DNA of 64,000 nt from Acidimicrobiia bacterium (GCA_029939995.1 JAOZRW010000007.1:15329-79328); one strand, 5' to 3'; counted from the first letter of the stretch, positions 44,895 to 58,252 are shown. A program made the numbers and translations. Notes: a model not told the origin generated them from the sequence alone.

Positions 44895-44949
44895 GAACAA
44901 CTCCAATGATCGGAAACGACGCAACGGGGCAAGTATAGATTCCCGCCCG

Positions 44950-45558: not shown

Positions 45559-45559
45559 G

Positions 45560-47086
45560 TCACTTCCCCCTCACGATGGAGTAGAGGAATCCGATGAACG
45601 CGAACGCCGCGACGAATTCGAGCCTTCCGAGCCACATCTGGATGATGTACGTGATCTCCAGGAGAACCGGCATCGACGAGTCGGTGACGCCGACCGACAG
45701 CCCGACGTTCGCACCGGCGCTCACGGACTCGAACAGTGCCGCCTGGAGCGGGATGCCGTACGCAAGACCGATGACGGCCCCGACGATGTACAGGGTCACG
45801 TAGAGCAGCGACATCATGAGCACGGTCCGGGCGAGCGCGGGCGTCAACTCCTTGGTCCGGAACTGATGGTACGAGCGGTCGACGATCGCACCGTGCGGGA
45901 GCAGAACCGACTGGATCTCCTGGCGCATCGAGGTCGCAGTCAAGCCCACCCGCATCGCCTTGATGCCCCCGGCCGTCGACGAGGCCATGCCGCCGAGACC
46001 CATCGCGATGGCCATGCCGGCGAAAGCCAGGCCGCTCCACCGGACCATCTCGGTTGGGGGAACCGTCGCGAACCCGGTGCCGGTGTGCGCGGAGAGCACC
46101 TGGAAAAACCCCTGACGGCTCAGACCCGTGATCTCGCCGTAGGCGTTCATGACCACGAGACCGAACAGCACGAGTGTGAGCGTGAGCAGGAACGTGCCGA
46201 TGATCGTTCTGGCTTCGAGGTTCTTCAGGAGGAGGAGGCGTCGTCGTTCGCCACCCCGGCCCGCCGGGCGGGACCGGCCCCAGAGCGTGTAGTGAACGGC
46301 GAACGACATCGCGCCGGCGACCATCAGGATGGAGACGATGAACTCGAACACGGCGGAGTGGTAGTAGCCGATGCTCGTGCTCTGGGGGGCGAACCCGCCG
46401 GTGTCGAACCCGGCGAAGAAGATCATGAGGCCGTGGAAGAGCGACCGGGTCCACCCGAAGCCGAGAACGAAGTAGGCGACGATCCCGAGCGCAAGGACGC
46501 CGAAGACGAGATGCGCGACGGCCACGGTCCAGATGTACCTCGCCGTGGACTGCACCGAAGGGAGGATGTGGTCGTCGCGTCCCTCGCCGTAGTAGAGCGT
46601 CATCGCTCCCCCGCCCGCGATGAGGACGAGCACAGCGATGATGATGCCCTGGCCGCCGAGGAAGTGCAGGAGGTGGCGCCAGAAGTTCAGAGACGGCGCC
46701 AGATGGTCGAGGTCCTGAACGAGCGCGAGGCCCGTGGTGGACAGACCGGACATGGCGTCGAAGTAGGCGTCGAGCGGACTAGCGAAGTGCCCGGAGAGCA
46801 TGAACGGAATCGCCCCGATGAGCGGGACGACGAGCCAGGTGACGGCGACGACGACCATGCCGTGTCCCCAATCGAGCCGTTGGTCATCGCTGCCGACCAC
46901 GGTCATGGTGGCGCCGAGCGCGCCGAATACGCCGATCATCAGCAGGAACGAACTGAACGGGCCCCACTCGCGCCCGGCCACCGACCAGGCGAGCGGGAGC
47001 AGGCCGGACGCCGCCACGACGAGGAACACCCGGCCCAGGTAGAACCCGATGATCCGGAAGTCCGAGCCGGCGGGACGGATGAGCAC
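45560..47086 (-). CDS. trkH: TrkH/KtrB-family potassium uptake membrane subunit
   Basis: Polytopic, with repeated selectivity-filter-like segments (SGLSTTG, FDTGGF, HTGTGF, GANVGLS). Confidence 0.9.
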   Translation of the reverse strand: MLIRPAGSDFRIIGFYLGRVFLVVAASGLLPLAWSVAGREWGPFSSFLLMIGVFGALGATMTVVGSDDQRLDWGHGMVVVAVTWLVVPLIGAIPFMLSGHFASPLDAYFDAMSGLSTTGLALVQDLDHLAPSLNFWRHLLHFLGGQGIIIAVLVLIAGGGAMTLYYGEGRDDHILPSVQSTARYIWTVAVAHLVFGVLALGIVAYFVLGFGWTRSLFHGLMIFFAGFDTGGFAPQSTSIGYYHSAVFEFIVSILMVAGAMSFAVHYTLWGRSRPAGRGGERRRLLLLKNLEARTIIGTFLLTLTLVLFGLVVMNAYGEITGLSRQGFFQVLSAHTGTGFATVPPTEMVRWSGLAFAGMAIAMGLGGMASSTAGGIKAMRVGLTATSMRQEIQSVLLPHGAIVDRSYHQFRTKELTPALARTVLMMSLLYVTLYIVGAVIGLAYGIPLQAALFESVSAGANVGLSVGVTDSSMPVLLEITYIIQMWLGRLEFVAAFAFIGFLYSIVRGK

Positions 47087-47087
47087 G

Positions 47088-47234
47088 TCAGGCCACCCAG
47101 AGGGCGACGACGGCGATCACGATCGCGATGAAGGCCAGAGCGAGCACGACGGACGCTTCGACGGCGAACGACAGGATCGCGCCGACCACATCGCGGCGGA
47201 ATCGGGCGCCGGCGTTCTGTGATCGGCCGGTCAC
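47088..47234 (-). CDS. Unlisted 48-codon ORF encoding a single-TM peptide between trkA and trkH
   Basis: Manual translation gives (V)TGRSQNAGARFRRDVVGAILSFAVEASVVLALAFIAIVIAVVALWVA. The GTG overlaps the trkA stop (GTGA). Its TGA is 1 nt before the trkH GTG. Third codon positions are almost all G/C. It is below the apparent length cut-off of the ORF track (no listed ORF is shorter than 60 aa). Confidence 0.4.
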   Translation of the reverse strand: MTGRSQNAGARFRRDVVGAILSFAVEASVVLALAFIAIVIAVVALWVA

Positions 47235-47890
47235 GGCTTCGGCCCGTCGACACCGAGGGCGATGCAGACGTCGGCCGCTGCGCTGATCGTCGATGCGACG
47301 AGGACGTGATCGCCCGGTTTGACCTTCGTGGTCCCGCGCACGATGAACACGTCATCGCCGCGCATCACCGTGACCAGCAGCGAATCCGGTGGTATGTCGA
47401 GCTCGGAGACGAGCCGGGCCTCGAACGTGGCGGGGATCTCGAGTTCCTGGACGGCGACTCTCCCGCCTCCGAACAGGTCCGACGACGCGAGGTCGGGGAT
47501 CTTGACCTCCTTCGAGATGACCTGAGCGATCAGGTGGGTCACGCTGACCACCTGGATCTCGAGAGCCTCGAACGTCGCCTGGTTGGACGGGTCGTTGAGC
47601 CGAGCCATCACCCGCTTCGCCCCGAGGGTTTTCCCGAGTTGCGTGGCGACGAGGTTGTCCTCGTCCTGGCCGGTCACGGCGATGAGCCAATCGGCCCGAT
47701 CGACGTCGGCGGCTTTCAAGAGATCCGGATCCGTGCCGTCCCCTTCGAACACCAGCACCTTGACGGCATGGACGATCGCACGAGCCCGGCCGGGCTTCTC
47801 CTCGACCACGGCGACGAAGTGCCCGGCCTGGGAGAGCATCCGGGCGAGGTAGGAGCCGATCTTTCCCCCGCCGACGATCACGACTCTCAT
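47231..47890 (-). CDS. trkA: Trk system NAD-binding (RCK) protein TrkA, second copy
   Basis: MRVVIVGGGKIGSYLARML Rossmann motif followed by a TrkA-C-like domain. 4-nt overlap with the first copy. Confidence 0.9.
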   Translation of the reverse strand: MRVVIVGGGKIGSYLARMLSQAGHFVAVVEEKPGRARAIVHAVKVLVFEGDGTDPDLLKAADVDRADWLIAVTGQDEDNLVATQLGKTLGAKRVMARLNDPSNQATFEALEIQVVSVTHLIAQVISKEVKIPDLASSDLFGGGRVAVQELEIPATFEARLVSELDIPPDSLLVTVMRGDDVFIVRGTTKVKPGDHVLVASTISAAADVCIALGVDGPKP

Positions 47891-48552
47891 GCGAGTTCGG
47901 GCCTTTCATCCACCAGGTACTTCTTCACCCTGCCGAGCACACCGTGTTTGGCGGCAGCGGTCACGACGTCGCCCGGTTTGAGTTTGAAGTCGTCGTCGGG
48001 TACGAGCGTCCGGTCGTCTCTGCTCACGGCGGCGACCCGCAGTTGCCCGCGCACCTCGAGGTCCGAAACGACGAGACCGGTGGCCTTGTCGTTGAGCACC
48101 ATGTCGATGACTTCGACGTTGCCGGTCGAGAACGTGATGTGATAGTCGAACTCTTCGTCGACGATCTGTTCGTGAAGGATCCGCGAGGTCAACCGGGACG
48201 CCGCGACGTACCGGATGTCGAGGGCGCGGTAGGCCTCGATTCGCGCCGGATCGTCCAGTCTGGCGATCGTCTCGTGCACGCCGAACACCGATCGGGCGAC
48301 TTGCACGGCCATGGCGTTCGCGTTGTCGCCGTTCGTGACCGCCACGAAAGCGTCGGCGAACTCGATGCCCGCTTCCTTCAGCACCTGCACGTCGTAGGCA
48401 CGACCGACGTGGACCGTTCCGTTGAACGTTCCGCCGAGCATCTGGAAGCTGTCGGCGTCGGCGTCGATGACCGACACGTCGTGCCCCTCCTCGGAGAGGG
48501 TGTCTGCGAGATCACTCCCGACCCGTCCACACCCGGCGATCACGATGCGCAT
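47887..48552 (-). CDS. trkA: Trk system NAD-binding (RCK) protein TrkA, first copy
   Basis: MRIVIAGCGRVGSDLADTL Rossmann motif followed by a TrkA-C-like domain. Confidence 0.9.
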   Translation of the reverse strand: MRIVIAGCGRVGSDLADTLSEEGHDVSVIDADADSFQMLGGTFNGTVHVGRAYDVQVLKEAGIEFADAFVAVTNGDNANAMAVQVARSVFGVHETIARLDDPARIEAYRALDIRYVAASRLTSRILHEQIVDEEFDYHITFSTGNVEVIDMVLNDKATGLVVSDLEVRGQLRVAAVSRDDRTLVPDDDFKLKPGDVVTAAAKHGVLGRVKKYLVDERPELA

Positions 48553-48644: not shown

Positions 48645-49886
48645 GTGAAACAGATTCTCCGTCCGCTCGCCATCCTCGCCGCCGCCGCGCTCGTCGCCGG
48701 AGCGTGCACTTCGACGCCCGCGTCCACGGCAGAGTCGTCCGTGACGTCTCCGCCGACCACCGCTAACCCCACAACCACCGAAGGATCGACTTCGACCATG
48801 ACTCCTTCGACCACGACCACGGAACCCGCGGTCGTGCCGGAAGTCACCGCGACCGGTGACCTTCCGCCGGGGCTCCTCGACGCTGTGAGCTCCGTGCTCA
48901 CATGGCAGCAGGAACCTCAGGCGCCGAATCCGGACATCCCCGAAGGGCTCGCCGACCATCTCCGGTCCTACCCGATCGAGACGACGGACACGATGACGGT
49001 GACCGGGTCGACGGCGACGCTCGACGACGGTTGGGTCGCCGTCGTCGAAACCGGGAACGGTGACATCCTGCTCGGAGCGGACGAGGGCGATGGATGGGCG
49101 ATCGTCGGCGCCCGGCCGGCCAACGGACCGGCCTGGTACGGAGACGAGCCGCGCATGGTCATGGTCATCGGTTCGGACGCCCGCCCCGGAGAGAATCAAC
49201 AGACCCTGCGTGCCGACAGCATCCACATCCTGACGGCGAATCCGTCGACCGGCTCCGGGACGATATTGGGGTTCCCGAGAGACAGCTACGTGACGACGCC
49301 GTTCGGATCCATGAAGTTCTCGTCGGTGATGGCCGGACGCGGGCCCCAGGTGATGGTCGACACCGTCGTGAACACCTGGGATCTGCCGGTCGAGGGATAC
49401 GTCGTCACCGGCTTCCGGGGGTTCGAAGACCTGATGGGTGCAGTCGGGAACCTTCCCATCGTCCTCCCGCTCGCCGTCCCCGAACAGGCCGAGTGGACGG
49501 GGTTCCGCGCCGGACGGCAGACCCTGACCCCGCAGCGAACGCTCGAGTACTCCCGCACCAGGAAGAAGATCCCCGGCGGAGACTTCACGCGCTCCGCCAA
49601 TCAGGGGCTCGTGATGCTCGCCGTTCTCGATCTCCTCCAGATGAACGACGTCGTCGACTCGCCGGAGATCATCGACGTCCTCCTCGATCACACGTGGACG
49701 AGCCTGACGCCGACCGACCTGATCCAGTTGGCGGCGACCGTGCACACGCTCGACCCCGCCGCGATCGAGAACGTGGTCCTGCCGGGGAAACTCGGGCGAG
49801 CGGGAACTGCCTCGGTCGTTCGGCTCACGCCTCAAGCCGACGCGATGCTCGCGGATCTCGCCGACGACGGCGTCCTCAATCGGTAG
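48645..49886 (+). CDS. LCP (LytR-CpsA-Psr) family cell-envelope phosphotransferase, lipoprotein
   Basis: Lipobox LVAGAC, Thr/Ser/Pro-rich linker, and LCP core (VIGSDARPGE...RADSIHILT...GFPRDSYV...). Confidence 0.82.
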   Translation: MKQILRPLAILAAAALVAGACTSTPASTAESSVTSPPTTANPTTTEGSTSTMTPSTTTTEPAVVPEVTATGDLPPGLLDAVSSVLTWQQEPQAPNPDIPEGLADHLRSYPIETTDTMTVTGSTATLDDGWVAVVETGNGDILLGADEGDGWAIVGARPANGPAWYGDEPRMVMVIGSDARPGENQQTLRADSIHILTANPSTGSGTILGFPRDSYVTTPFGSMKFSSVMAGRGPQVMVDTVVNTWDLPVEGYVVTGFRGFEDLMGAVGNLPIVLPLAVPEQAEWTGFRAGRQTLTPQRTLEYSRTRKKIPGGDFTRSANQGLVMLAVLDLLQMNDVVDSPEIIDVLLDHTWTSLTPTDLIQLAATVHTLDPAAIENVVLPGKLGRAGTASVVRLTPQADAMLADLADDGVLNR

Positions 49887-49920
49887 CTGCACGCTCCATC
49901 GCCCGTCGGGACGTGGCGGC

Positions 49921-51408
49921 CTACTGTTCCCCTGGACCGGAGGAAACACCGGCGTTCGGAAGTCGTATGGCTTCAGGGGACTTGGCCGCCTCGTGGGAAA
50001 TCGGCCCACCAGAAGTCACCTCAAGACCCCGACGCTCCATGGCCCCCCACTCCAGATCCCCCCGGGCCGCCGAAACCAGGCCACGGAGGCGCCACCACGA
50101 GGATAGTTGCCGGTACCCGAAGTTCTCGATGAGTGCTGTACCGAGGAGCGTAAGCAGATCTCTGGACCGTCGATACCTCCGGAAGGAAATCTCTTCAAGA
50201 GCGACTGCCGCAACCGACAGGGCAGAACCGAGGAACACTGCAACGGCGAGGAACGCGACGATGTACCCGAAAGATGCCACTCCGATGACGACCGCCAGCG
50301 CGAACGCGAAGTACCCGAGAAGCTCCACGATGGGCCCGAGCGTTTCGAAGAGGAGGTAGTGCGGGAGAGCCACGAGTCCGGGAACGCCGTATTTCGGATT
50401 CGCGATCATCTTCCGGTGACGAACCATCACCTGCGCCAGCCCTCGCTGCCACCGATCGCGTTGACGCCCCAGTTCGGCAACTCGCTCCGGCGCTTCAGTC
50501 CATGCAACCGGATCCGGGATGAATTCGATTCGATAGGGCGTGCCCCGATCGCGGCAGTGACGATGGAGCCGAACGATGAGCTCCATGTCCTCTCCGACGG
50601 TATCGGGGTCGAACCCGCCCGCTTCCGCGACAACCGATCGCCGGAATGCCCCGAATGCTCCCGAGATGATCAAGGTGCCGCCGATCGAGTTCCATCCGAC
50701 CCGGGCGGCAAGGAACGCTCGCAAGTATTCGAGCACCTGGAACCGAGCGAGCATGTTCCGCGGAAGGCGGATGTCCTCGACCGAGCCGCCGCTGACGCGA
50801 CATCCGTTGGCGATGCGGACGATTCCGCCGACCGCCACCGTCGATCCGTCCTCCAAGAACGGCCGAACGACTCGCGCAAGCGCATCCGGCTCGAGGATTG
50901 TGTCCGCATCCATTGCGCAGAACAGGGCGCTGCGGGAGTAGTTCAAGCCTGCGTTCAACGCGTCGGCCTTTCCCCCGTTTGCTTTGTCGATCACCGTCAG
51001 GTTCTGATGTCGGACACCGTGATAGACGGCAGAAACCGGCGCGCATGGAATCGAGCTCGTCGGCACGCGTGTGACTTCCTCCAAGTCGAACGCGTCGATG
51101 AGGGAACGAAGCGTGTCGTCGTTCGAACCATCGTTCACGACCACGATCTCATAGTCGGCATAGGTGAGCGTCAACAGTGACCGGACCGAAGGGACGATCG
51201 AGGCTGACTCGTTGAACGCGGGGACGACGAGAGAAATGGGAAGGCCTCCGCTCGATGCCAGGAGATCATCGATTTGTAGCGAGTCGAGCCGATCCATGTA
51301 TCTCCGGAGGCTCCTGAAGGCCGTGAAACTCAGTAGCAGGTACGTTCCGTTGAGCACGACGAAGTAGATGATGATGAAGATGTTGAAGGCTGTGAGCGCG
51401 CTCGTCAT
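49921..51408 (-). CDS. Processive family-2 glycosyltransferase (PgaC/IcaA/cellulose-synthase-like polysaccharide synthase)
   Basis: Start trimmed to ATG 51408 (MTSALTAFNIFIIIYFVVLNG...). Motifs VVVNDGSNDDT, AMDADT, GEDMEL and QRDRWQRG (QxxRW). N- and C-terminal TM helices. ATGA overlap with the HEAT gene. Confidence 0.88.
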   Translation of the reverse strand: MTSALTAFNIFIIIYFVVLNGTYLLLSFTAFRSLRRYMDRLDSLQIDDLLASSGGLPISLVVPAFNESASIVPSVRSLLTLTYADYEIVVVNDGSNDDTLRSLIDAFDLEEVTRVPTSSIPCAPVSAVYHGVRHQNLTVIDKANGGKADALNAGLNYSRSALFCAMDADTILEPDALARVVRPFLEDGSTVAVGGIVRIANGCRVSGGSVEDIRLPRNMLARFQVLEYLRAFLAARVGWNSIGGTLIISGAFGAFRRSVVAEAGGFDPDTVGEDMELIVRLHRHCRDRGTPYRIEFIPDPVAWTEAPERVAELGRQRDRWQRGLAQVMVRHRKMIANPKYGVPGLVALPHYLLFETLGPIVELLGYFAFALAVVIGVASFGYIVAFLAVAVFLGSALSVAAVALEEISFRRYRRSRDLLTLLGTALIENFGYRQLSSWWRLRGLVSAARGDLEWGAMERRGLEVTSGGPISHEAAKSPEAIRLPNAGVSSGPGEQ

Positions 51409-52427
51409 GCAGCTCCTCCGTACAAGGTCTCGATCGCCGCATCCCGAAGGAGCCCGCCGCGCTCGGTGAGCAGTGCAAGTTCGTCGGACGCGTGAAGGTC
51501 GGCGAGCGCCTGAGCCGACCGTATCGCCACCCATGGAGATTCGTCGTCGGCCATCTCGAAGATCAATCGAGCGTCCTCTCTGCTTCCGATCCGCCCCAAC
51601 GTCGTGATCGCGGCCGAGCGCACGAAGAACCTCTCATCCTCGATGAGCGGTCGGACGGCGGCAGCATGTTTCGCGCGGCCAACCACGGAGAGCAATCGAA
51701 GACATGCCGCGATCAAGTTCGGGTCCGCTCCGGGTATCTGCGCCGCGGCCACATCGGATGCCTCGGGATCCCTCAGAAGTCCCAGAGCTCGAGCGACGGC
51801 AACACGCCCCCCAACGGGGTTGCGAGCGTCGGCGAGGTAGGTCCTCATGCTCGCAGCCGCGCCGATACCGACACCTGCCAGCATCGAGGACAAGAGAGCG
51901 ACGCTCCACGATGAGTACCGATCAAGTCGAAGCAGGACTTCGCCAATCCACCGTTCGCGCTGCGGTTGGCACAGAGCGCGGGCTGCCACCAGCGACACCA
52001 GGGGCGACGAGTCGTCGAGAAAGGTGGAGATCGTCGCCTCTCCGTCGGTATCACCGAGGCAGCTGACGATTTGGAGGGCTCTTGCTCGAGTCTCGGGGCG
52101 ACCCGAGGCAAGGTCCGGCGCGACGACATCGAGCAGCGGAGCCGCGAAGGCCCGAATCCTCTCGCGATCGGCACCGCGGAGTCTCCGGGCGATGCTCCAA
52201 GCGATTTCTATGACATCGCGCTGCTCGGCGGAATCCACGTCGTCGGCCAATGCGGCCGGATCCGAGTCACCGGATATGAGCCCGATGAGGAGCGGTTGCC
52301 ACTGCTCGCTCCGCCGGTCGCGTCTCGACGCGCGCCGTCCGTGGAGCACCCGGAGGACAAGAACAAGACCGGCAAACAGGAGGTTGAGGGCTGCAAGTCC
52401 CGCGATCGCGACCGCGAGACCGGTCAT
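51405..52427 (-). CDS. Membrane-anchored HEAT-repeat protein
   Basis: N-terminal TM helix LAVAIAGLAALNLLFAGLVLVL, then repeated HEAT/PBS-lyase-like units (e.g. FFVRSAAITTLGRIGSREDA, SPWVAIRSAQALADL). ATGA overlaps on both sides. Confidence 0.7.
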   Translation of the reverse strand: MTGLAVAIAGLAALNLLFAGLVLVLRVLHGRRASRRDRRSEQWQPLLIGLISGDSDPAALADDVDSAEQRDVIEIAWSIARRLRGADRERIRAFAAPLLDVVAPDLASGRPETRARALQIVSCLGDTDGEATISTFLDDSSPLVSLVAARALCQPQRERWIGEVLLRLDRYSSWSVALLSSMLAGVGIGAAASMRTYLADARNPVGGRVAVARALGLLRDPEASDVAAAQIPGADPNLIAACLRLLSVVGRAKHAAAVRPLIEDERFFVRSAAITTLGRIGSREDARLIFEMADDESPWVAIRSAQALADLHASDELALLTERGGLLRDAAIETLYGGAA

Positions 52428-53497
52428 GTCGCCGCAAGGTGTCGACGAACTCGCACCGCGACCTCTGCTGGAGAGAAGGGTTTGACGATGTAGTCGGTGG
52501 CCCCCAGATCGAACCCATGGACCACGTCCTCTTCACGGGCCCGTCCGGTGAGCATGATGACGGGCAGCTTCGCCGTGGCCGAGGAAGAACGCAGCCGTTC
52601 GAGAACCTCGAACCCATTCATCCGCGGCATCATCACGTCGAGGATCACGAGGTCCGGAGGGGAAGCAAGTGCATCGGCCAAGGCGCTCTCTCCATCCGCG
52701 TGGCGCCGTACGACGTACCCATCTCGAGAGAGCCGATCCTCAATGAGCGCAACCACGAGATCGTCATCTTCAACCAGGAGGATGTCACGAGGCCGTGGGG
52801 GCGCCTCTTCGACGGGAGCCGAAATCGCCGAACCGGCCGAGATCTCGGAAGCGTTCGACTCTCCCGACGTCACCAGTGCGTTCACGGTGTCGACGAGAGC
52901 CGCGGCGTCAAACGGTTTCGTGAAGAACGCGTCGGCGCCGGCGTCCAGGACACCCCGACGTGTCTCCTCGTCGTCCAACCCCGACAAGACGACCACGGGA
53001 ATCGCGGGTGTAGAGATGCCAGTACGGATCTCTTTGAGCAGGTCGAGGCCCGACCCATCGGGCAGTAGACAGTCGAGTAAGACGAGCGCAATAGCGGGAC
53101 TGATGCGCCCCCGGGCCTCGGCGAGAGACGCTGCGGAGACGAACGACCGGCCCGGTGCGGCAAGAGTCCTCTCGAGGATCGCCCGCATCAGAGGATCGTC
53201 GTCCACCATGAGGATTTGGGACACGGTCGCGTTCGTCACAACGATCTCATCCAGAATCGACACCAAGGTGACGACCACTTCGCCGAGTTCGCCATCGGCT
53301 GCGTGATTGGCTTCGGTCGCGACCGCGGTGACTTCAGGATGTCCGTAGCTACTCCCTGAACCCTTCAGACGATGGCAGATCCCCCGGCTCTCCACGATTG
53401 CGGTGGCATCGCCCGCAGCAACATGGGGGGCCAGTTCGCGCAGCCGCTCGAGATCCGGCTCCACTCCCTTTCGATATGCGTCTTCGAGGCTCTGCAA
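52424..53497 (-). CDS. HPt domain fused to two receiver (REC) domains
   Basis: HPt motif CHRLKGSGSSYG. REC1 ILMVDDD...LVLLDCLLPDGSG...TKPF. REC2 ILLVEDDD...LVILDVMMPRMNG...IVKPF. No output domain. Confidence 0.85.
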   Translation of the reverse strand: MQSLEDAYRKGVEPDLERLRELAPHVAAGDATAIVESRGICHRLKGSGSSYGHPEVTAVATEANHAADGELGEVVVTLVSILDEIVVTNATVSQILMVDDDPLMRAILERTLAAPGRSFVSAASLAEARGRISPAIALVLLDCLLPDGSGLDLLKEIRTGISTPAIPVVVLSGLDDEETRRGVLDAGADAFFTKPFDAAALVDTVNALVTSGESNASEISAGSAISAPVEEAPPRPRDILLVEDDDLVVALIEDRLSRDGYVVRRHADGESALADALASPPDLVILDVMMPRMNGFEVLERLRSSSATAKLPVIMLTGRAREEDVVHGFDLGATDYIVKPFSPAEVAVRVRRHLAAT

Positions 53498-53686
53498 CTC
53501 GGCTACTCCTGGGTTGTATCCACATCAACCGACCTCATCCGTCCGATCGATGGAAACGAGTCGGTGGACTCGATCGGGCTCGGCCAATACTGACTCTTCG
53601 GCAGGATCACATGGGCACTTCAGCCGTATGAACCGGCGGAAGCGCTCGACTCTCAAGCACACCTTCCGCTGTGCCGATGAATCCGA

Positions 53687-54007
53687 ATGGAACGGATACT
53701 GGAGCGAACAGCGCTTGTCCACGCAACCCTGATCATCACCGTGGCGGCGATCATGACCGGTTGTGCCGGCACGGCTTCCTACGAGCGAGAGATTCCTCTC
53801 GAGGCGCACTGGAAGTGTGACGTTCAACATCGCACGTACACCGACCTGGACACGATGGCCGACGATCTTGCCGGCCGTCTTGCAGGGGAGGGAATCTCGG
53901 ACGAGCGCTATGCGAGGTTCAAGGCGGACATGGAGTCCTCTCCCGACCTGCGATCCGCAGTGCTCACGGAATACACCGCCTATTGCGGGGACGCCGGTGA
54001 TGACTAG
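53687..54007 (+). CDS. Small lipoprotein, unknown function
   Basis: Lipobox in ATLIITVAAIMTGC. Located in the AT-richer segment, divergent from the HPt-REC-REC operon. Confidence 0.5.
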   Translation: MERILERTALVHATLIITVAAIMTGCAGTASYEREIPLEAHWKCDVQHRTYTDLDTMADDLAGRLAGEGISDERYARFKADMESSPDLRSAVLTEYTAYCGDAGDD

Positions 54008-54079
54008 CCCGTTCACGCCCTGGGAGAATGGCCACTTCGTGGGTTTCAGGAACCGCGCTGCAGAGCCGATGGTCTTCTC

Positions 54080-54898
54080 ATGAAACGTCGAGCAACAGTC
54101 GTCCTCATCATCGCTACCGCCTTGTTCACCGTGCTCGCTGCCCCCGCATCTGCGAAGGGCCCGGCCGGCGGAACTGCAAAGGTGAAGCTCGAGACGAGGA
54201 AGACTCCGGCTGTTGTCCAAGGCGGTCAGGCATGGGTTGCCCTCAACTGGCGAGGATCCGGCGCCGATGCATCCGACTTCCGGGTCACCGCAACAACGAA
54301 AGCCGCCGGGGTGGAGATCTCCTACCCGGAGACCATGGGGGGCGCATACAGCAGCCTCATGGACGACAATGTCCTGTCCGCCGACGATATCGATTTCACG
54401 GCACTCCACCTGTCCGTTCCCTATGGAACGAAGAAGTTCACGATGGCCGTGACGGCATCGTGGAATGACGGGCACAGAATCGTCAAGAAGAACTTCAAGG
54501 TGCAAGTCCCCACGTTCGCGTACTCAGGCGACGACGTCGCCCTCGTCACCGACGATGCGACCACTAACTCGAAGACGCTCCAGGACGGGTCGTCCCAGAT
54601 CTGGGTCGACGTTGCATGGAGCGGTCTCGCGCCATCCCTCGGCGACGTTCGAATGACTGTGAACAGCCCAGATGGCATTGAGATCGGCTATCCGGACCCA
54701 AACGGGAATGGGCAAGCCTGGTCGGGCCTCGCCCGCGACGATCGTCTCGTTCAAGGGGAAACAGATGTCGCCCGGTTCCGCCTCGACCCCGCAACCATGG
54801 ATCCGGGGGTCTACGAGATTGCCGTTCTCCTGTCATACACCCGGGACGGTTCGACACGCACCACACCCGGGACGATCACAGTCTCGGTCGGCAAGTAG
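54080..54898 (+). CDS. Secreted protein with two tandem homologous beta-rich domains of about 110 aa, unknown function
   Basis: Signal peptide MKRRATVVLIIATALFTVLAAPASA. Internal duplication: AWVALNWRGSGADASDFRVTATTKAAGVEISYPE versus IWVDVAWSGLAPSLGDVRMTVNSPDGIEIGYPD. Confidence 0.62.
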   Translation: MKRRATVVLIIATALFTVLAAPASAKGPAGGTAKVKLETRKTPAVVQGGQAWVALNWRGSGADASDFRVTATTKAAGVEISYPETMGGAYSSLMDDNVLSADDIDFTALHLSVPYGTKKFTMAVTASWNDGHRIVKKNFKVQVPTFAYSGDDVALVTDDATTNSKTLQDGSSQIWVDVAWSGLAPSLGDVRMTVNSPDGIEIGYPDPNGNGQAWSGLARDDRLVQGETDVARFRLDPATMDPGVYEIAVLLSYTRDGSTRTTPGTITVSVGK

Positions 54899-54950: not shown

Positions 54951-55358
54951 TCACGATCTGGCCTCTCCGGCCTCGTCGAGCAGCTTCATCGGAGCGAACT
55001 CGGCTCGGCTCGACGCCCGCACGGTGATCGTTCCGATGCCGAACAGCGCGACGTGCCGCTCGACCTCCACGACGACGATCCTCGGCCTCCAGGTGCGGTC
55101 GATCGGGCAGGTGCAGCGGGTGACGACCGCTCCGTTCGCATGCGCCAGCCGACGCGCCTCCGCCGTCGGGCTTCCACCGCCTCCGAAAGGGAGGAACGTC
55201 ACGGGCGCTGCGGCGAGCGCAGCGGCGTCGGCGGCGGCGGCCGCTTGCAACCGGGCGCTGAGAGCAAGCCCTGCGTCGGCCACGCCGAGCGTCAGGACGA
55301 CGACGAGACCGGCGACCGCCAGGAGGAGCAGAGACGCCGAGCCGGCCGTTCGCCTCAT
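54951..55358 (-). CDS. TadE-like / pilus-cluster-associated membrane protein
   Basis: N-terminal hydrophobic segment GSASLLLLAVAGLVVVLTLGV. ATGA overlap with the upstream TadE-like gene. Last gene of the Flp cluster. Confidence 0.55.
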   Translation of the reverse strand: MRRTAGSASLLLLAVAGLVVVLTLGVADAGLALSARLQAAAAADAAALAAAPVTFLPFGGGGSPTAEARRLAHANGAVVTRCTCPIDRTWRPRIVVVEVERHVALFGIGTITVRASSRAEFAPMKLLDEAGEARS

Positions 55359-55714
55359 CGCTCGACCCGCATCACGGCCCGGGCCGTGACGTCGACGGAC
55401 ACACCGCCGAACAGCGGCGCCGCTACCCGGTACGGCAGCGAGACCCGGACTTCGGCGAGACGTCCGACGACGTCCGGACGCCTCACCGAGACCCTCGCCG
55501 CCGACCCGGCCTCGCCGAGCGCCGCCCGGGCGGCGCGAACGGCGTCGGCCGGATCCGGAGACGCGGCGGCCTCTCTCGCCCCCTCCCGGGCGGCGTTGAC
55601 GACTTCCATCTGGGTCCGCGCCACGAGGGCCACTTCGACGAGCCCGAGGATGAGCGCGAGCACGAGCGGCACGACGAGAGCGAACTCGACGACGGCGCTC
55701 CCCCGCTGGCTCAT
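55355..55714 (-). CDS. TadE-family pilus assembly protein
   Basis: Start trimmed to ATG 55714. RGSAVVEFALVVPLVLALILG is the TadE N-terminal signature. ATGA overlap with the pilin gene. Confidence 0.7.
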   Translation of the reverse strand: MSQRGSAVVEFALVVPLVLALILGLVEVALVARTQMEVVNAAREGAREAAASPDPADAVRAARAALGEAGSAARVSVRRPDVVGRLAEVRVSLPYRVAAPLFGGVSVDVTARAVMRVER

Positions 55715-55896
55715 CCGAGCGGCGCGCCCTTCGCCACGGACGTGACCTTCTTGAGCACCGTCGAGAAGAACGCCGGAAGGAGATCGGTGGATGTGGCCCA
55801 GATGATCAGCGCCAGCGCGATCGCTGCGGCGGCGACGATCACCAGCGCATATTCGGCGGTCGCCTGGCCCCGTTCGTCGGCTTCGAAGAGTTTCAT
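55711..55896 (-). CDS. flp: Flp-type pilin-like protein
   Basis: MKLFEADERGQATAEYALVIVAAAAIALALII: the G/xxxxEY processing motif followed by a hydrophobic helix. 61 aa. Confidence 0.72.
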   Translation of the reverse strand: MKLFEADERGQATAEYALVIVAAAAIALALIIWATSTDLLPAFFSTVLKKVTSVAKGAPLG

Positions 55897-55950
55897 GATG
55901 TTCCTTTCGGTCGCCGGCGTCCGGCCGGTGCGGCGGGAAGTGAGAACACG

Positions 55951-56529
55951 TCAGAGCCCGAGACGCTCGAGGCTTCCGAGGACGGCCGGGCCGATCGTCA
56001 AGACGAGGAACCCCGGCAGGATCAGGAGCGCCAGGGGGAAGAGCAGCTTCACCGGAAGTCGCCGCGCCGCCGTCAGGTGTCGCGCCCGCTCCTCGCTCCT
56101 GAGCGTCGCGGCGTACCCCGAGATCGCGGGAATCAACGGCGCTCCGGTGGACAGCGCCCGGCGCGCGACGACCATGAGCACCGGATCGTCTTCCTCCACG
56201 GAACCGTCGCCGCGAAATCGGATCGCCCGAACGAGTCGCGACGCGGCGTCGCCGCCGACCGAGTCGGCCGCTGCCGCGGCGGCCGGGGGGAACCTGAGGC
56301 CGGCGCTCAGGCCGAGAACGGTCAGGGCGGCCCGCAGGGCTTCGCCATCGCCGTCGCGTGCCCGGCTTCCGTATCGAACGATCAGGGCACGTGCGACCAC
56401 GCCGACTGCCAGTGCGGCTCCGAGAAGGGGGCTCACCGTCCACGTTGCGACGACTGCGGCGCCGATGATCAGCGGGCGTCGACCATCCAGGATCGTCGCG
56501 GACAACGCAAGAGCGATCACCACGCTCAT
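55951..56529 (-). CDS. TadC-like (type II secretion system F family) membrane protein
   Basis: Start trimmed to ATG 56529. Short T2SS-F-like protein with a C-terminal LLFPLALLILPGFLVLTIGP segment. ATGA overlap with the upstream gene. Confidence 0.65.
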   Translation of the reverse strand: MSVVIALALSATILDGRRPLIIGAAVVATWTVSPLLGAALAVGVVARALIVRYGSRARDGDGEALRAALTVLGLSAGLRFPPAAAAAADSVGGDAASRLVRAIRFRGDGSVEEDDPVLMVVARRALSTGAPLIPAISGYAATLRSEERARHLTAARRLPVKLLFPLALLILPGFLVLTIGPAVLGSLERLGL

Positions 56530-57203
56530 CGCTCGGCCCGGCGAACGATGACGGCGACGAGGAGCAGTCCGGCCGCTTCGAGAGCGACGCCGATGATCAG
56601 CACGATCCATCCGAGGTTCCCGTGGGCGAGGAGACCGCTCGTTCGGCCCGTGGCAAGAAGGAGCGCCGTGAACGCCAGCGGCGCGACGCCGACGATCAGT
56701 GCGGAGACCCTGGCCTGAGCGGTGGCGGCCCGCCGTTCCCTGGCCATCTCCGCTGCGTCGGCGGCGCGATCTGCGAGATCCTCGAACGCGTCGGCAACCC
56801 GCGCTCCCGACCAGTCGCTGAGCCGGAACGCCGCGGCAGCCAGCGGGCCGTTCTCGGGGAATCGTTCCTCCACCTCGTTGGCGACGTCGACCATGGGGAG
56901 ACCTGCAGCGGCGAGACGCACGGTGCGGTCGAGCGGCAACCCGGGAACACGGTTGGCCGCGGCTCCGAGCGCACCACGCAGGGAGTTTCCCGAGCGGAGC
57001 TCCGCGGCGAGCGCCCGGAAGTAGGTCGCTTCGTCATCCGGGGTGACGCGGCTCGCTCGACGGCGGAAGGCGGACATCCCCGCCCAGACGGCCGCGCCGA
57101 CCAGAACGATCCTGGGTTCGACGGCGGCAACGGCGCCGACGGCGATGAACGCCGGCGGGACGCCGAGCAGAACGCCGATCGCGAGGATGACCGCCGTCAG
57201 CAC
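56526..57203 (-). CDS. TadB-like (type II secretion system F family) membrane protein
   Basis: Start set at GTG 57203 (VLTAVILAIGVLLGVPPAF...), which overlaps the ATPase stop. The listed 607-aa ORF is an Arg-rich read-through of the ATPase gene. Confidence 0.65.
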   Translation of the reverse strand: MLTAVILAIGVLLGVPPAFIAVGAVAAVEPRIVLVGAAVWAGMSAFRRRASRVTPDDEATYFRALAAELRSGNSLRGALGAAANRVPGLPLDRTVRLAAAGLPMVDVANEVEERFPENGPLAAAAFRLSDWSGARVADAFEDLADRAADAAEMARERRAATAQARVSALIVGVAPLAFTALLLATGRTSGLLAHGNLGWIVLIIGVALEAAGLLLVAVIVRRAER

Positions 57204-58252
57204 GGGTACACCTCGACCACGCCGGACGGCCCGACGTCCGAGATGGAGGAGACGAGCCTCGTTCCGCGGCGACGTGTCACGAACACGATGCGATCCACCG
57301 ACGATCTGATCTGTCGGCGCAACGTGTCGGTCGAGACTCCGACGTCGGCCGTTGCCGCGAGGCTCTCGAGCCGCCACAGCGCCTCCTCCGATCCGTTGGC
57401 GTGGATCGTCGACATCGACCCGTCGTGGCCCGTGCTCATCGCCTGGATCATGTCGAGCGCCTCGGGTCCGCGGACCTCTCCGACCACGATCCGATCCGGG
57501 CGGAGACGCAGGGCGTGGCGGAGCAGCGTCCGCAGGGAGATCTCGCCGGCACCCTCCGCGTTGGGTGGCCGCGCTTCGAGACGAACGACGTGTCCGACCA
57601 GCCTCAGCTCGGCGGCGTCCTCGACGGTGACCGTGCGTTCGTCGGACCCGATCTCCTTCGAGAGGACGTTGAGGAGCGTGGTCTTCCCCGAGCCGGTTCC
57701 TCCCGCGATCAGCAGGTTCATCCGGTTCGTGACCGAGGAACGAAGCATCTCCGCCCCGGCCGAGTCGATCCCGCCGACCTCGACGAGTTGGTCGAGGTCG
57801 GTCACGGCTTCGGAGAAGCGTCGGACGGCGACGATCGGGCCGTCCACCGACGCCGGGGGGATCACCGCGTGCAGGCGCGACCCGTCCGGGAGCCGGGCGT
57901 CGACGGCCGGGCTCGCACGGTCGATCCGCAATCCCAACGGAGCGATGACCCGTTCGACGGCCGCGACGACCGCGCGATCGTCGGCGTACACGATCCCGGT
58001 TCGTTCCAGCTCCCCGCGACGCTCGACCCACACGTCCGACGGCCCGTTGATGAGCACGTCCGTGATGTCCGGGTCGCGGAGCAACCGCTCCACCGGACCC
58101 AGACCGGCGAGTGCGTCGACTGCGTTGACGATCACGTCCGGGCCGGCGAGCGGCGCCACGTCGGGGGCCAGAGCGGCGGCCGCAGCCGTCAACGGGCCGC
58201 GTTCGAGCGGTACGTCGGACTCCAGAAGACGGCGAACCAGCCGATCGGTCAC
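57197..58252 (-). CDS. TadA/CpaF-family secretion ATPase
   Basis: Walker A LIAGGTGSGKTTLLN, Asp box VTVEDAAEL, Walker B RIVVGEVRG, His box GHDGSMSTIHA. Start at GTG 58252 (GTGA overlap) or ATG 58270. Confidence 0.88.
   Translation of the reverse strand: MTDRLVRRLLESDVPLERGPLTAAAAALAPDVAPLAGPDVIVNAVDALAGLGPVERLLRDPDITDVLINGPSDVWVERRGELERTGIVYADDRAVVAAVERVIAPLGLRIDRASPAVDARLPDGSRLHAVIPPASVDGPIVAVRRFSEAVTDLDQLVEVGGIDSAGAEMLRSSVTNRMNLLIAGGTGSGKTTLLNVLSKEIGSDERTVTVEDAAELRLVGHVVRLEARPPNAEGAGEISLRTLLRHALRLRPDRIVVGEVRGPEALDMIQAMSTGHDGSMSTIHANGSEEALWRLESLAATADVGVSTDTLRRQIRSSVDRIVFVTRRRGTRLVSSISDVGPSGVVEVYPC

What the first reader, a model, noticed from the sequence alone, without database searches (positions are those of the whole stretch)
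49921..53497. Tightly coupled HPt-REC-REC / TM-HEAT / processive GT2 synthase operon: candidate phosphorelay-gated polysaccharide synthase
Three minus-strand genes are joined by ATGA overlaps at 52424-52427 and 51405-51408. The first encodes an HPt domain fused to two receiver domains with no output domain. The second encodes a single-pass membrane protein made of HEAT repeats. The third encodes a multi-TM GT2 with DxD and QxxRW, the hallmarks of processive beta-glycan synthases such as PgaC, IcaA and BcsA. The synthase systems I know use PilZ/c-di-GMP, PgaD or BcsB-type partners, not a HEAT-repeat partner plus an HPt-REC-REC protein. No deacetylase, porin, PilZ or GGDEF gene is adjacent. I cannot name a characterised system with this layout. 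The inference is that phosphorylation state controls the synthase through the HEAT scaffold.
Basis: partly seen in the sequence, partly recalled or inferred. Interest (0 to 1): 0.72.

Follow-up and report, generated by a model that had tools for sequence, protein, structure and literature searches.

The report
Receiver–HEAT–GT2 polysaccharide synthase operon
Three overlapping genes encode a membrane sugar-polymer synthase, a membrane-anchored HEAT-repeat partner and a phosphorelay receiver protein; the same cassette recurs across many bacterial phyla and a haloarchaeon, and I found no description of it, so it looks like an unstudied polysaccharide synthase system, possibly controlled by phosphorylation.

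Summary
Three minus-strand genes, joined by ATGA overlaps at 52424-52427 and 51405-51408, encode:
- an HPt-REC-REC protein;
- a protein with one N-terminal TM helix followed by HEAT repeats;
- a membrane GT2 with DAD, GED and QRDRW motifs. Its AlphaFold model (pLDDT 86) aligns over its full length with hyaluronan, cellulose and chitin synthases.

The layout is strongly conserved.
- The order REC protein, then HEAT, then GT2 holds in all 22 metagenome/MAG loci that contain all three genes. These come from Acidimicrobiia, Gemmatimonadota-like and Gammaproteobacteria genomes.
- All three loci picked by the GT2 alone also carry an upstream HEAT gene.
- The HEAT-GT2 pair, overlapping or at most 7 nt apart, also occurs in Mesorhizobium, Erythrobacter, Legionella, Deinococcus, Bacteroides, Planococcus and the haloarchaeon Halosolutus.
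- Several two-membrane (diderm) versions add a TPR/YaiO outer-membrane barrel, which points to polymer export.

The conserved regulatory element is the C-terminal receiver (REC2). Its upstream modules vary.

The GT2 is PgaC-like (29% identity) but scores far below the PgaC/IcaA cut-off. The HEAT partner matches no specific Pfam or NCBIfam family. Eight literature searches found no description of the system.

The conserved three-part system is well supported. Phosphorylation control acting through the HEAT protein is plausible but untested. The polymer is unknown.

The parts
52424..53497 (-). Gene 1: HPt-REC1-REC2 protein of 357 aa with a TTG start and no output domain
   Evidence: AGGAG lies 7 nt upstream of the TTG. 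The stop codon overlaps the start of gene 2 (ATGA at 52424-52427).
53225..53497 (-). HPt-like four-helix domain (residues 1-91). The candidate phospho-His is H42, codon 53372-53374, in the motif HRLKGSGSSYG.
   Evidence: Pfam Hpt is weak: 18.1 bits against a cut-off of 24.6. H42, K45, G46, S47 and G48 are invariant in 10 relatives. Precomputed Hpt hits exist in the homologues of L001 (weak) and L002 (unmarked). A family profile gives weak PDB hits to LuxU, CheA P1 and AHPs.
52883..53218 (-). REC1 (about residues 94-205). The acceptor Asp is D142, codon 53072-53074. D99/D100, S172 and K194 are also present.
   Evidence: REC1 is conserved in Acidimicrobiia and Gemmatimonadota-type regulators. 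It is absent from loci that carry only a single-domain receiver.
52433..52789 (-). REC2 (about residues 237-355). The acceptor Asp is D287, codon 52637-52639. D244/D245, T317 and K339 are also present. This is the receiver type that travels with HEAT-GT2 across phyla.
   Evidence: REC2 scores 79-123 bits against cassette-linked receivers. Examples are the Halosolutus RR at 100 bits, Mesorhizobium RR2 at 100 bits and Erythrobacter at 88 bits. Other receivers in the same clusters score 58-76 bits, and E. coli CusR scores 66 bits.
51405..52427 (-). Gene 2: membrane-anchored HEAT-repeat protein of 340 aa. The N-terminal TM helix is residues 6-24 (52356-52412). The rest is a predicted cytoplasmic alpha-solenoid.
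   Evidence: The family profile finds 869 50%-identity clusters at E<=1e-30 (some are long multi-repeat HEAT proteins), and most of the 150 best hits (all E<1e-88) are full-length proteins of about 340-365 aa. There is no specific Pfam or NCBIfam family. The stop codon overlaps the start of gene 3 (ATGA at 51405-51408).
49921..51408 (-). Gene 3: membrane-integrated GT2 synthase of 495 aa. The DAD motif (residues 167-169) is at 50902-50910, and QRDRW (residues 316-320) is at 50449-50463. There is a conserved cytoplasmic C-terminal region at about residues 405-462 and a disordered tail from residue 464 to 495.
   Evidence: The AlphaFold2 model has pLDDT 86.1 and pTM 0.85. The top Foldseek matches are Chlorella virus and Xenopus hyaluronan synthases (TM about 0.6 over about 480 columns), BcsA and chitin synthases.

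Best explanation
The three genes form one translationally coupled operon. I propose that it encodes a synthase-dependent polysaccharide system of a conserved but uncharacterised type.

Proposed parts:
- The GT2 (PgaC-like, with a hyaluronan/cellulose/chitin-synthase fold) would polymerise a nucleotide sugar at the cytoplasmic face and thread the chain through its own membrane domain.
- The HEAT protein would be its obligatory partner. Its single TM helix would pack against the rather small TM bundle of the synthase. Its cytoplasmic HEAT solenoid would sit beside the catalytic domain.
- The receiver protein would be the dedicated switch. A kinase encoded elsewhere would phosphorylate REC1. The phosphoryl group would pass to H42 of the HPt domain and then to D287 of REC2. 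Phosphorylated REC2 would then bind the HEAT solenoid, or the conserved cytoplasmic C-terminal helices of the GT2, and turn polymerisation on or off after translation. In this scheme phosphorylation takes the place that c-di-GMP/PilZ or PgaD has in the known systems.

What is shown: the domain content, the catalytic motifs, the fold class, the translational coupling, the cross-phylum conservation of HEAT-GT2 and of the REC2-type receiver, and the outer-membrane TPR/YaiO barrel in several two-membrane (diderm) versions.

What is inferred: physical HEAT-GT2 and REC-HEAT contacts, the direction of control, the route of phosphotransfer, and the polymer. The polymer is possibly a HexNAc-containing beta-glycan, judged from the PgaC/NodC/chitin-synthase similarity and from glmS plus a sugar-phosphate nucleotidyltransferase next to the haloarchaeal copy.
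For: 1. Domains, motifs and overlaps are confirmed.
2. Fold class: the model (pLDDT 86) aligns full-length with processive membrane synthases. phmmer aligns residues 58-400 to BcsA. Identity to E. coli PgaC is 29% over 275 aa, E 3e-29.
3. Neighbourhood: the order REC protein, HEAT, GT2 holds in all 22 metagenome/MAG loci that contain all three genes, and HEAT then GT2 holds in all 25 found through the HEAT protein. All three loci chosen by the GT2 alone have a HEAT gene upstream.
4. The HEAT-GT2 pair is also found in cultured Mesorhizobium, Erythrobacter, Legionella, Deinococcus, Bacteroides, Planococcus and Halosolutus, and in Emticicia with only a weak HEAT_2 match.
5. The HEAT-GT2 junction overlaps or is at most 7 nt wide in 16 of 16 loci.
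6. HEAT and GT2 identities to the window fall in parallel: HEAT from 90% to 25%, GT2 from 96% to 50%.
7. Two-membrane versions carry a TPR and/or YaiO outer-membrane barrel gene inside the cassette. This is the PgaA-like arrangement expected for polymer export.
8. The REC2-type receiver is specifically linked to the cassette, with scores of 79-123 bits against 58-76 for other receivers. Many loci add a hybrid kinase, and some a separate Hpt gene.
9. Topology: the Arg-rich segment after the HEAT TM helix places the solenoid in the cytoplasm (positive-inside rule). The GT domain and the receivers are also cytoplasmic.
Against: - No protein-protein contact was tested or modelled.
- The window has no histidine kinase, so the input signal is unknown.
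- Four of the eight plasmid-borne HEAT-GT2 loci examined from cultured organisms (Deinococcus, Legionella, Bacteroides, Planococcus) have no adjacent receiver. The receiver is therefore not obligatory for the core.
- The Pfam Hpt score is below threshold in the window protein.
- Gemmatimonadota-type regulators carry a GGDEF-like insert between the receivers. A nucleotide ligand could therefore matter in some lineages, although the GG[DE]EF motif is missing.
- QxxRW and this fold also occur in enzymes that make short oligomers, such as NodC. High polymer length is therefore not proven.
- GC3 of the trio is lower than in the flanking genes (0.70-0.73 against 0.84-0.90). This is unexplained.
Confidence: 0.55

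Rival explanations
1. HEAT+GT2 is the functional synthase complex, but the receiver protein does not act on it directly. It would be co-transcribed as part of a wider signalling circuit, for example a phosphate sink or relay feeding a transcription factor, or a regulator of the neighbouring Tad pilus. It would affect the polymer only indirectly, if at all.
For: HEAT-GT2 occurs without any adjacent receiver in Deinococcus, Legionella, Bacteroides and Planococcus. HPt-REC-REC proteins without an output domain are classic relay or sink modules (general knowledge of two-component systems). Tad genes lie just upstream in the window and in L001.
Against: A specific REC2-type receiver stays next to HEAT-GT2 from Acidimicrobiia to Alphaproteobacteria and a haloarchaeon, while the rest of the neighbourhood changes completely. 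In the window the receiver gene is translationally coupled to the HEAT gene. Tad genes are absent from most other loci.
Confidence: 0.2
2. The GT2 is not a processive exopolysaccharide synthase. It would instead make a glycolipid, a lipid-linked monosaccharide or a short oligosaccharide, for example a polyprenyl-phosphate sugar, a glucosyl-diacylglycerol-type lipid or a Nod-factor-like oligomer. Its products could feed cell-envelope glycosylation, perhaps handed on by the adjacent LCP enzyme.
For: GT2 membrane enzymes with similar motifs include NodC and lipid glycosyltransferases. NCBIfam gives weak sub-threshold matches to NodC, HpnB, GT21-like and ArnC-like families. PcManGT, an archaeal membrane mannosyltransferase, is among the structural hits (ranks 12 and 16). 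An LCP gene is convergent with the GT2 here and in L001.
Against: The best and full-length structural matches are hyaluronan, cellulose and chitin synthases. QRDRW and the C-terminal TM block are invariant. Two-membrane homologues carry TPR/YaiO outer-membrane barrels in the cassette, and a lipid product would not need these. The LCP neighbour is not conserved outside the closest clade.
Confidence: 0.12
3. Control is by a nucleotide second messenger rather than by phosphorylation. The HEAT protein or the GT2 C-terminal Arg-rich helices would bind c-di-GMP or a related ligand. The receiver protein would be a remnant of a REC-GGDEF-REC regulator that only localises or modulates that signal.
For: Gemmatimonadota-type cassettes encode REC, a GGDEF-like domain and REC in the same position. 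All well-studied bacterial synthase-dependent systems (Bcs, Pga, Alg, Pel, Nfr) are c-di-GMP controlled (general knowledge; PMC8669469 for Nfr). The conserved segment SFRRYRRSRD follows the last TM helix of the GT2.
Against: The GGDEF-like inserts lack the GG[DE]EF motif. The window protein has no such insert at all. No PilZ, MshEN or GIL domain was detected in any of the three proteins. Both receivers keep every phospho-acceptor residue, and an HPt His is conserved. This argues for real phosphotransfer.
Confidence: 0.1

Closest known systems
PgaCD / IcaAD poly-beta-1,6-GlcNAc synthase, with the PgaA TPR plus beta-barrel porin
   Same: PgaC_IcaA is the closest curated sequence family. E. coli PgaC is 29% identical over 275 aa and shares the DxD, xED and QRxRW motifs. 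The synthase needs a small membrane partner. Two-membrane relatives of this cassette carry a TPR/beta-barrel outer-membrane protein, like PgaA.
   Different: The TIGR03937 score is 133 bits against a cut-off of 422. There is no PgaD/IcaD and no PgaB/IcaB deacetylase. The partner is a 340-aa protein with one TM helix and a HEAT solenoid. The barrel belongs to the YaiO family, not to PgaA. The regulatory input is a receiver or phosphorelay, not c-di-GMP.
Bacterial cellulose synthase BcsA-BcsB, with the E. coli cytosolic regulators BcsE, BcsF and BcsRQ
   Same: It has the same fold class of membrane-integrated processive GT2. A single-TM partner helix (BcsB anchor, BcsF) associates with the synthase. 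BcsE contains degenerate REC and GGDEF-like domains, a parallel to the REC/GGDEF*/REC regulators of the Gemmatimonadota-type cassettes (the BcsE architecture is from my own knowledge, not tested here).
   Different: There is no PilZ domain and no BcsB. The receivers here keep intact phospho-acceptor sites. The scaffold is made of HEAT repeats.
Class I hyaluronan synthases (Chlorella virus and Xenopus HAS)
   Same: These are the best structural matches, with TM-score about 0.6 over about 480 aligned columns. They are of similar size and compactness.
   Different: Identity is only 17-18%. HAS works alone, without a dedicated partner or receiver. There is no evidence here for an alternating GlcA/GlcNAc product.
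NfrB-NfrA-YbcH of E. coli (c-di-GMP-activated GT2 with a TPR-containing outer-membrane NfrA)
   Same: It is a synthase-dependent system built from a GT2 plus a TPR-containing outer-membrane protein. RefSeq annotates NfrA as an exopolysaccharide secretion outer-membrane protein (PMC8669469).
   Different: NfrB is only 27% identical over 131 aa and is annotated as c-di-GMP-activated. The TPR/YaiO protein of L020 shows only a weak TPR-region match to NfrA. Nfr has no HEAT partner.
Alpha-solenoid activators or scaffolds of polysaccharide synthases: yeast Chs4/Skt5 (Sel1 repeats) for chitin synthase Chs3, and PelE (TPR-like) in Pel
   Same: A membrane-associated alpha-helical repeat protein is needed beside a polysaccharide synthase. 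This is a functional analogy recalled from knowledge and was not tested here.
   Different: The repeat type is different and there is no sequence relationship. Neither is coupled to a receiver domain.

Membership tests
PgaC/IcaA poly-beta-1,6-GlcNAc synthase (NCBIfam TIGR03937 equivalog) | Score at or above the curated whole-protein cut-off of 422.3 bits | tested here: not met
   The score is 133.1 bits. Identity to E. coli PgaC is 29%.
PgaC/IcaA poly-beta-1,6-GlcNAc synthase (NCBIfam TIGR03937 equivalog) | Operon partners PgaD/IcaD and a PgaB/IcaB-type deacetylase | tested here: not met
   No Polysacc_deac domain and no PgaD-like gene were found among the neighbours scanned. The partner is a HEAT protein.
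Membrane-integrated processive GT2 synthases (BcsA/HAS/CHS class) | GT-A catalytic domain with DxD, a (T/G)ED catalytic base and Q(R/Q)xRW | tested here: met
   D167-A-D169, G272-E273-D274 and Q316-R-D-R-W320 are present. The Asp, Glu, Gln, Arg and Trp residues are invariant in 52 homologues.
Membrane-integrated processive GT2 synthases (BcsA/HAS/CHS class) | Catalytic domain fused to a TM bundle and interface helices that form the translocation channel | tested here: met
   The model (pLDDT 86) aligns over about 470-490 columns with hyaluronan synthases, and also with BcsA and Chs1/Chs2. The channel itself was not inspected.
Membrane-integrated processive GT2 synthases (BcsA/HAS/CHS class) | Makes and translocates a long polymer | not testable with these tools
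   This needs biochemistry. Indirect support comes from the TPR/YaiO outer-membrane barrels in two-membrane cassettes.
BcsA-type c-di-GMP-gated cellulose synthase | C-terminal PilZ domain and a BcsB partner | tested here: not met
   There is no PilZ or BcsB hit in the GT2 or in the neighbours.
His-Asp phosphorelay components | Receiver domains with the acid pocket, acceptor Asp, Ser/Thr and Lys | tested here: met
   REC1 has D99/D100, D142, S172 and K194. REC2 has D244/D245, D287, T317 and K339. These positions are conserved in the full-length homologues aligned.
His-Asp phosphorelay components | HPt domain with the phospho-His in an HxxKG motif | tested here: inconclusive
   Pfam Hpt scores 18.1 bits, below the 24.6 cut-off. 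The motif H42-R-L-K-G-S-G is invariant in its clade. The homologue in L002 has an unmarked precomputed Hpt hit. The His is lost in Gemmatimonadota-type proteins.
His-Asp phosphorelay components | A cognate histidine kinase | tested here: not met
   None was found in the 64-kb window. Hybrid kinases are adjacent in L022, L023, L028 and L030, and probably L035.
HEAT-repeat proteins (Pfam HEAT_2 / PBS-lyase type) | Tandem HEAT-like helical hairpins | tested here: met
   HEAT_2 scores 54.5 bits against a cut-off of 27.7. The family profile matches alphaRep proteins at E 3e-51. No structure was predicted for this protein.

The most novel reading that the evidence does not exclude
This is a widespread polysaccharide synthase system, found in bacteria and archaea, that is gated directly by His-Asp phosphotransfer and not by c-di-GMP. 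A dedicated receiver domain (REC2 type), once phosphorylated, would dock on a membrane-anchored HEAT-repeat subunit that completes and allosterically opens a compact GT2 synthase. That would make it a distinct, so far unnamed class of synthase-dependent exopolysaccharide system.
Probability: 0.3. Interest if true: 0.8.

Novelty: new variant of a known kind. Interest (0 to 1): 0.62.

Why it matters
The well-studied bacterial synthase-dependent polysaccharide systems (cellulose, PNAG, alginate, Pel, Nfr) are switched on after translation by c-di-GMP. This cassette has a different obligatory partner, a TM-anchored HEAT solenoid, and a dedicated phosphorylatable receiver. It is present in several hundred sequence clusters, including cultured Mesorhizobium, Erythrobacter, Legionella, Deinococcus, Bacteroides, Planococcus and a haloarchaeon.

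If it works as proposed:
- it would add a new regulatory logic for matrix and cell-surface glycan production, namely direct two-component control of a synthase;
- it would give a function to a large family of generically annotated 'HEAT repeat domain-containing' proteins;
- it would point to an unknown polymer that may matter for biofilms, symbiosis or desiccation tolerance in many environmental lineages.

The cultured carriers make it directly testable.

Tried and rejected
- Single-sequence AlphaFold of the GT2 gave an unusable model (pLDDT 41). It was replaced by a run with a 52-sequence alignment.
- I built a HEAT-linker-GT2 fusion from paired loci to model the complex, using 15 pairs. No interface prediction exists.
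- The first genome scan, with a 16-sequence HEAT alignment, failed for lack of a conserved stretch. It was repeated with 8 closer sequences.
- NfrB-like hypothesis: rejected. Identity is 27% over 131 aa, and the TPR/YaiO protein of L020 shows only a weak TPR match to NfrA.
- Xanthomonas xagABC as the known counterpart: nothing in the papers links it to a HEAT partner.
- Search for REC-HEAT or HEAT-GT2 fusion proteins: the longer HEAT-family hits carry only an SH3 domain or extra HEAT repeats. The 1117-aa Bacillus mycoides relative is a GH18-deacetylase-GT2 fusion outside this family.
- Active diguanylate cyclase in the REC/GGDEF/REC variants: rejected, because the GG[DE]EF motif is absent.
- The promoter and terminator scan of 49600-54100 found nothing.
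- The ORF at 53525-54505 (-) is probably not a gene. It has low GC3 and no family hit. The opposite strand holds two conserved genes.
- Eight literature searches found no description of the system. The search was poorly designed, because the word 'heat' swamped it.

Full report

Yes. Three minus-strand ORFs occupy 49921-53497. Reading the reverse strand shows 'gacATGAccgg' at 52427-52424 and 'gcATGAcgag' at 51408-51405. Each stop codon therefore overlaps the next start codon.

Gene 1 (52424-53497, 357 aa) starts at TTG, 7 nt after AGGAG.
- Pfam finds two receiver domains, 171 bits in total, and a weak Hpt match of 18.1 bits, below the 24.6 cut-off.
- NCBIfam gives only partial matches to the receiver halves of PhoB/OmpR-type regulators. 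There is no DNA-binding or other output domain.
- Counting residues in the translation, REC1 has D99/D100, D142, S172 and K194. REC2 has D244/D245, D287, T317 and K339.
- The N-terminal domain carries H42 in the motif HRLKGSGSSYG. H42, K45, G46, S47 and G48 are invariant in ten relatives.
- A profile of this domain gives weak PDB matches to LuxU, CheA-P1 and plant HPt proteins.
- The homologue in L002 has an unmarked precomputed Pfam Hpt hit, meaning E of at most 1e-5.
- I treat the HPt call as probable.

Gene 2 (51405-52427, 340 aa) has one strongly hydrophobic helix at residues 6-24, followed by RVLHGRRASRRDRR.
- By the positive-inside rule the rest of the protein is cytoplasmic.
- It matches Pfam HEAT_2 at 54.5 bits.
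- As a family profile it matches designed HEAT-like alphaRep proteins at E 3e-51.

Gene 3 (49921-51408, 495 aa from the ATG of the overlap) matches the GT2 families.
- D93, D167-A-D169, E273-D274 and Q316-R-D-R-W320 are invariant in 52 homologues.

Pfam scans of the flanking genes and a sequence search of all window ORFs found none of the following:
- deacetylase;
- PilZ domain;
- GGDEF domain;
- porin;
- histidine kinase;
- further receiver.

**2. What is the GT2?**

- The best curated family is PgaC/IcaA, but the score of 133 bits is far below the 422-bit cut-off.
- E. coli PgaC is 29% identical over 275 aa, E 3e-29.
- NfrB is much more distant, at 27% over 131 aa.
- phmmer aligns residues 58-400 with BcsA.
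- A single-sequence AlphaFold run failed (pLDDT 41).
- With a 52-sequence alignment the model reached pLDDT 86.1 and pTM 0.85.
- Foldseek against the PDB ranks Chlorella virus and Xenopus hyaluronan synthases first, with TM about 0.6 over about 480 columns. BcsA and fungal and oomycete chitin synthases are also prominent among the top matches.
- The protein therefore belongs to the membrane-integrated processive GT2 class.
- It is compact: one N-terminal TM helix, a C-terminal hydrophobic block at about residues 343-405, and then two conserved amphipathic helices.

**3. Is the trio conserved?**

Searching with the HEAT protein found 44 relatives, nearly all from metagenomes and assigned to Acidimicrobiia or Actinomycetota where named.

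The contexts examined were these:
- L001 repeats HPt-REC-REC, HEAT, GT2 and even the Tad and LCP neighbours.
- L002 and L003 carry an extra single-domain receiver and a further REC protein after the GT2.
- L004, L022 and L023 are Gemmatimonadota-like. They carry REC-REC or REC/GGDEF-like/REC, then HEAT, then GT2. In L022 and L023 a PAS hybrid histidine kinase follows the GT2; L004 ends inside the GT2 gene.
- L021 has a 510-aa REC protein, then HEAT, then GT2.

A scan of one genome per species returned 16 loci. They were mainly Acidimicrobiia MAGs, plus one Gammaproteobacteria MAG at 29% identity.

A uniform ORF and phmmer pass over all these loci found HEAT then GT2 on one strand in all 25 loci that came from the HEAT searches. 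A REC protein gene lay upstream in 24 of them. The exception, L019, is a 2.2-kb fragment that starts at the HEAT gene.

The converse test also holds. The GT2 search returned thousands of close relatives, about 60% identical between Acidimicrobiia and Gemmatimonadota. The three long contigs I opened, chosen by the GT2 alone, all have a HEAT_2 gene immediately upstream and a receiver gene.

The HEAT profile finds 869 50%-identity clusters at E<=1e-30 among 1.84 billion representatives; some of these are long multi-repeat HEAT proteins. Most of the 150 best hits (all E<1e-88) are full-length proteins of about 340-365 aa.

**4. Cultured organisms and breadth**

tblastn of the GT2 against PLSDB plasmids, followed by inspection of the annotation, gave these contexts:

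| Organism | Gene order |
|---|---|
| Mesorhizobium ciceri pMESCI01 | ATP-binding protein (likely kinase), RR, RR, YaiO outer-membrane barrel, HEAT, GT2, Hpt on the opposite strand |
| Erythrobacter aureus | RR, TPR, HEAT, GT2, convergent 1298-aa PAS protein |
| Legionella adelaidensis | nucleotide-sugar dehydrogenase, epimerase, YaiO, HEAT, GT2, epimerase |
| Deinococcus radiophilus | TPR protein, HEAT, GT2 |
| Bacteroides finegoldii | HEAT, GT2, TPR+YaiO protein |
| Planococcus maritimus | HEAT, GT2 |
| Emticicia oligotrophica | RR, weak-HEAT protein, GT2, hypothetical, YaiO, LTA-synthase-family enzyme |
| Halosolutus gelatinilyticus (haloarchaeon) | REC-like protein, RR, small ORF, HEAT, GT2, sugar-phosphate nucleotidyltransferase, glmS |

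- The Gammaproteobacteria MAG L020 has REC, TPR+YaiO, HEAT and GT2.
- At 28% GT2 identity the association ends. The Bacillus mycoides relative is a GH18-deacetylase-GT2 fusion.
- The A1 HEAT profile aligns collinearly, TM anchor included, with the Mesorhizobium, Erythrobacter, L020 and L028 proteins. The Legionella, Planococcus and Bacteroides partners match only in parts. The Deinococcus, Halosolutus and Emticicia partners did not match the profile at all and are recognised only through Pfam HEAT_2: 48.8 and 51.4 bits for the first two, and a sub-threshold 25.0 bits for Emticicia.
- The HEAT-GT2 junction overlaps or is at most 7 nt wide in 16 of 16 loci.
- The identities of the two proteins to the window fall in parallel across loci.

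**5. Which part of the regulator is conserved?**

I split the window protein and scored each receiver against the receivers of the other loci.
- REC2 scores 79-123 bits against the C-terminal receiver of every multi-domain regulator and against the single-domain RR next to the cassette. Scores: L027 112, Halosolutus 100, Mesorhizobium RR2 100, Erythrobacter 88, L020 79.
- REC1 scores only 27-50 bits against the same proteins.
- Other receivers in the same clusters score 58-76 bits with REC2.
- The unrelated E. coli CusR scores 66 bits with REC2.

So a particular receiver lineage travels with HEAT-GT2, and its N-terminal additions vary:
- none;
- HPt-REC1, as in the window;
- a helical domain, REC1 and a GGDEF-like insert.

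The GGDEF-like inserts lack GG[DE]EF, so c-di-GMP synthesis is unlikely. In Gemmatimonadota-type proteins the HPt His is also lost.

**6. Mechanism**

The following points are shown:
- a translationally coupled operon;
- a processive-type GT2;
- an invariably adjacent, TM-anchored cytoplasmic HEAT solenoid;
- a dedicated, phosphorylatable receiver;
- outer-membrane TPR/YaiO barrels in several two-membrane versions, as expected for polymer export;
- frequent linkage to hybrid kinases, and in some loci to separate Hpt genes.

The following points are inferred:
- The HEAT protein is a stoichiometric subunit. Its TM helix supplements the small TM bundle of the synthase, in the way that PgaD, the BcsB anchor or BcsF do.
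- The HEAT solenoid presents a docking surface.
- In the window protein the phosphoryl group travels from a kinase to REC1 D142, then to H42, then to REC2 D287.
- Phosphorylated REC2 binds the solenoid, or the conserved GT2 C-terminal helices, and switches polymerisation.

The polymer is unknown.
- The PgaC, NodC and chitin-synthase affinities, together with glmS and a nucleotidyltransferase beside the archaeal copy, hint at a HexNAc-containing glycan.
- The Legionella copy sits among a nucleotide-sugar dehydrogenase and epimerases.
- The window copy has no precursor genes, which fits a housekeeping donor.

**7. Rival explanations**

Four alternatives were considered, and they are detailed in the rivals section of this report:
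- The receiver acts elsewhere and only HEAT-GT2 is the machine. This is favoured by the four receiver-less loci. It is disfavoured by the REC2 lineage linkage.
- The GT2 makes a lipid-linked sugar or a short oligomer. This is disfavoured by the fold matches and the outer-membrane barrels.
- Control is by a nucleotide ligand. This is disfavoured by the degenerate or absent GGDEF domains and the intact phospho-sites.
- Linkage by chance. This is excluded by the recurrence of the arrangement.

**8. Comparison with known systems and novelty**

- The system works like a synthase-dependent exopolysaccharide system of the Pga, Bcs and Nfr kind.
- It is not a member of PgaC/IcaA, because both the score and the partner tests fail.
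- It is not a BcsA-type synthase, because it has no PilZ domain and no BcsB.
- No Pfam-A or NCBIfam model specific to the HEAT partner or to this GT2 clade exists in the libraries searched.
- Eight full-text searches found no paper describing a HEAT partner of a GT2 synthase.
- The library lacks most subscription journals, so a prior description cannot be excluded.
- I rate it a new variant of a known kind: a known enzyme class and secretion logic, with a new obligatory partner and a new regulatory input.

**9. Verdict**

The gating mechanism is a reasonable hypothesis and was not demonstrated.
- Interest: 0.62.
- Confidence in the full best explanation: 0.55. That figure is my overall judgement. 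It is about 0.85 for 'a conserved HEAT-GT2 synthase module with a dedicated receiver' and about 0.35 for 'phospho-REC2 gates the synthase via HEAT'.

Noticed in passing
window 49921-53497 compared with its flanks: The three genes have clearly lower third-position GC (0.70-0.73) than the flanking genes (0.84-0.90). Regional GC also dips to about 0.63, against about 0.67 elsewhere. This could reflect horizontal acquisition or weak codon adaptation. However, the same neighbourhood is kept in a 60%-identical relative (L001).
   Followed up: partly
window 53687-54007 (+) and 54080-54898 (+): Two genes without any Pfam match are transcribed divergently from the trio. One is a 106-aa protein with a lipoprotein-like N-terminus. 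The other is a 272-aa protein with a signal-peptide-like N-terminus that looks like two similar halves by eye. Both are conserved in L001 (45% and 50% identity). The long minus-strand ORF 53525-54505 that overlaps them is probably spurious.
   Followed up: partly
window 48645-49886 (+): An LCP (LytR-CpsA-Psr) glycopolymer transferase gene converges on the GT2. The same adjacency is seen in L001 but not in the more distant clades. It might attach a polymer to the wall in this lineage.
   Followed up: partly
window 54951-58525 (-): Tad/Flp pilus genes lie just upstream of the locus: a Tad (TadE/G-like) protein at 54951-55358, an ORF at 55355-56443 whose C-terminal part matches TadE, and a CpaF-type ATPase at 57197-58525. 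They are also present in L001. Pilus and polymer genes may be co-located for surface attachment.
   Followed up: no
window 42816-48552 (-): Housekeeping ion-transport genes: an H+-pyrophosphatase (42816-44993), TrkH (45560-47086) and two TrkA genes (47231-47890 and 47887-48552).
   Followed up: no
L021, L022, L026 and L028 (regulator genes upstream of HEAT): Gemmatimonadota-type, and some actinobacterial, regulators carry a GGDEF-like domain between the N-terminal part and REC2. It lacks the GG[DE]EF motif. This is a degenerate cyclase domain of unknown role, reminiscent of BcsE.
   Followed up: partly
L032 (Halosolutus gelatinilyticus plasmid, NZ_CP095493.1 81489-88551): An archaeal copy of the cassette (REC-like protein, RR, small ORF, HEAT, GT2) is followed by a sugar-phosphate nucleotidyltransferase and glmS. 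This is a hint that the donor is a UDP-HexNAc.
   Followed up: no
L034 (Emticicia oligotrophica pEMTOL05) and L037 (Planococcus maritimus plasmid): Accessory genes differ between lineages. Emticicia has an LTA-synthase-family (phospho-substituent transferase-like) gene after YaiO. Planococcus has a CotH kinase and a DUF4956 gene upstream. These are possible lineage-specific polymer modifications.
   Followed up: no
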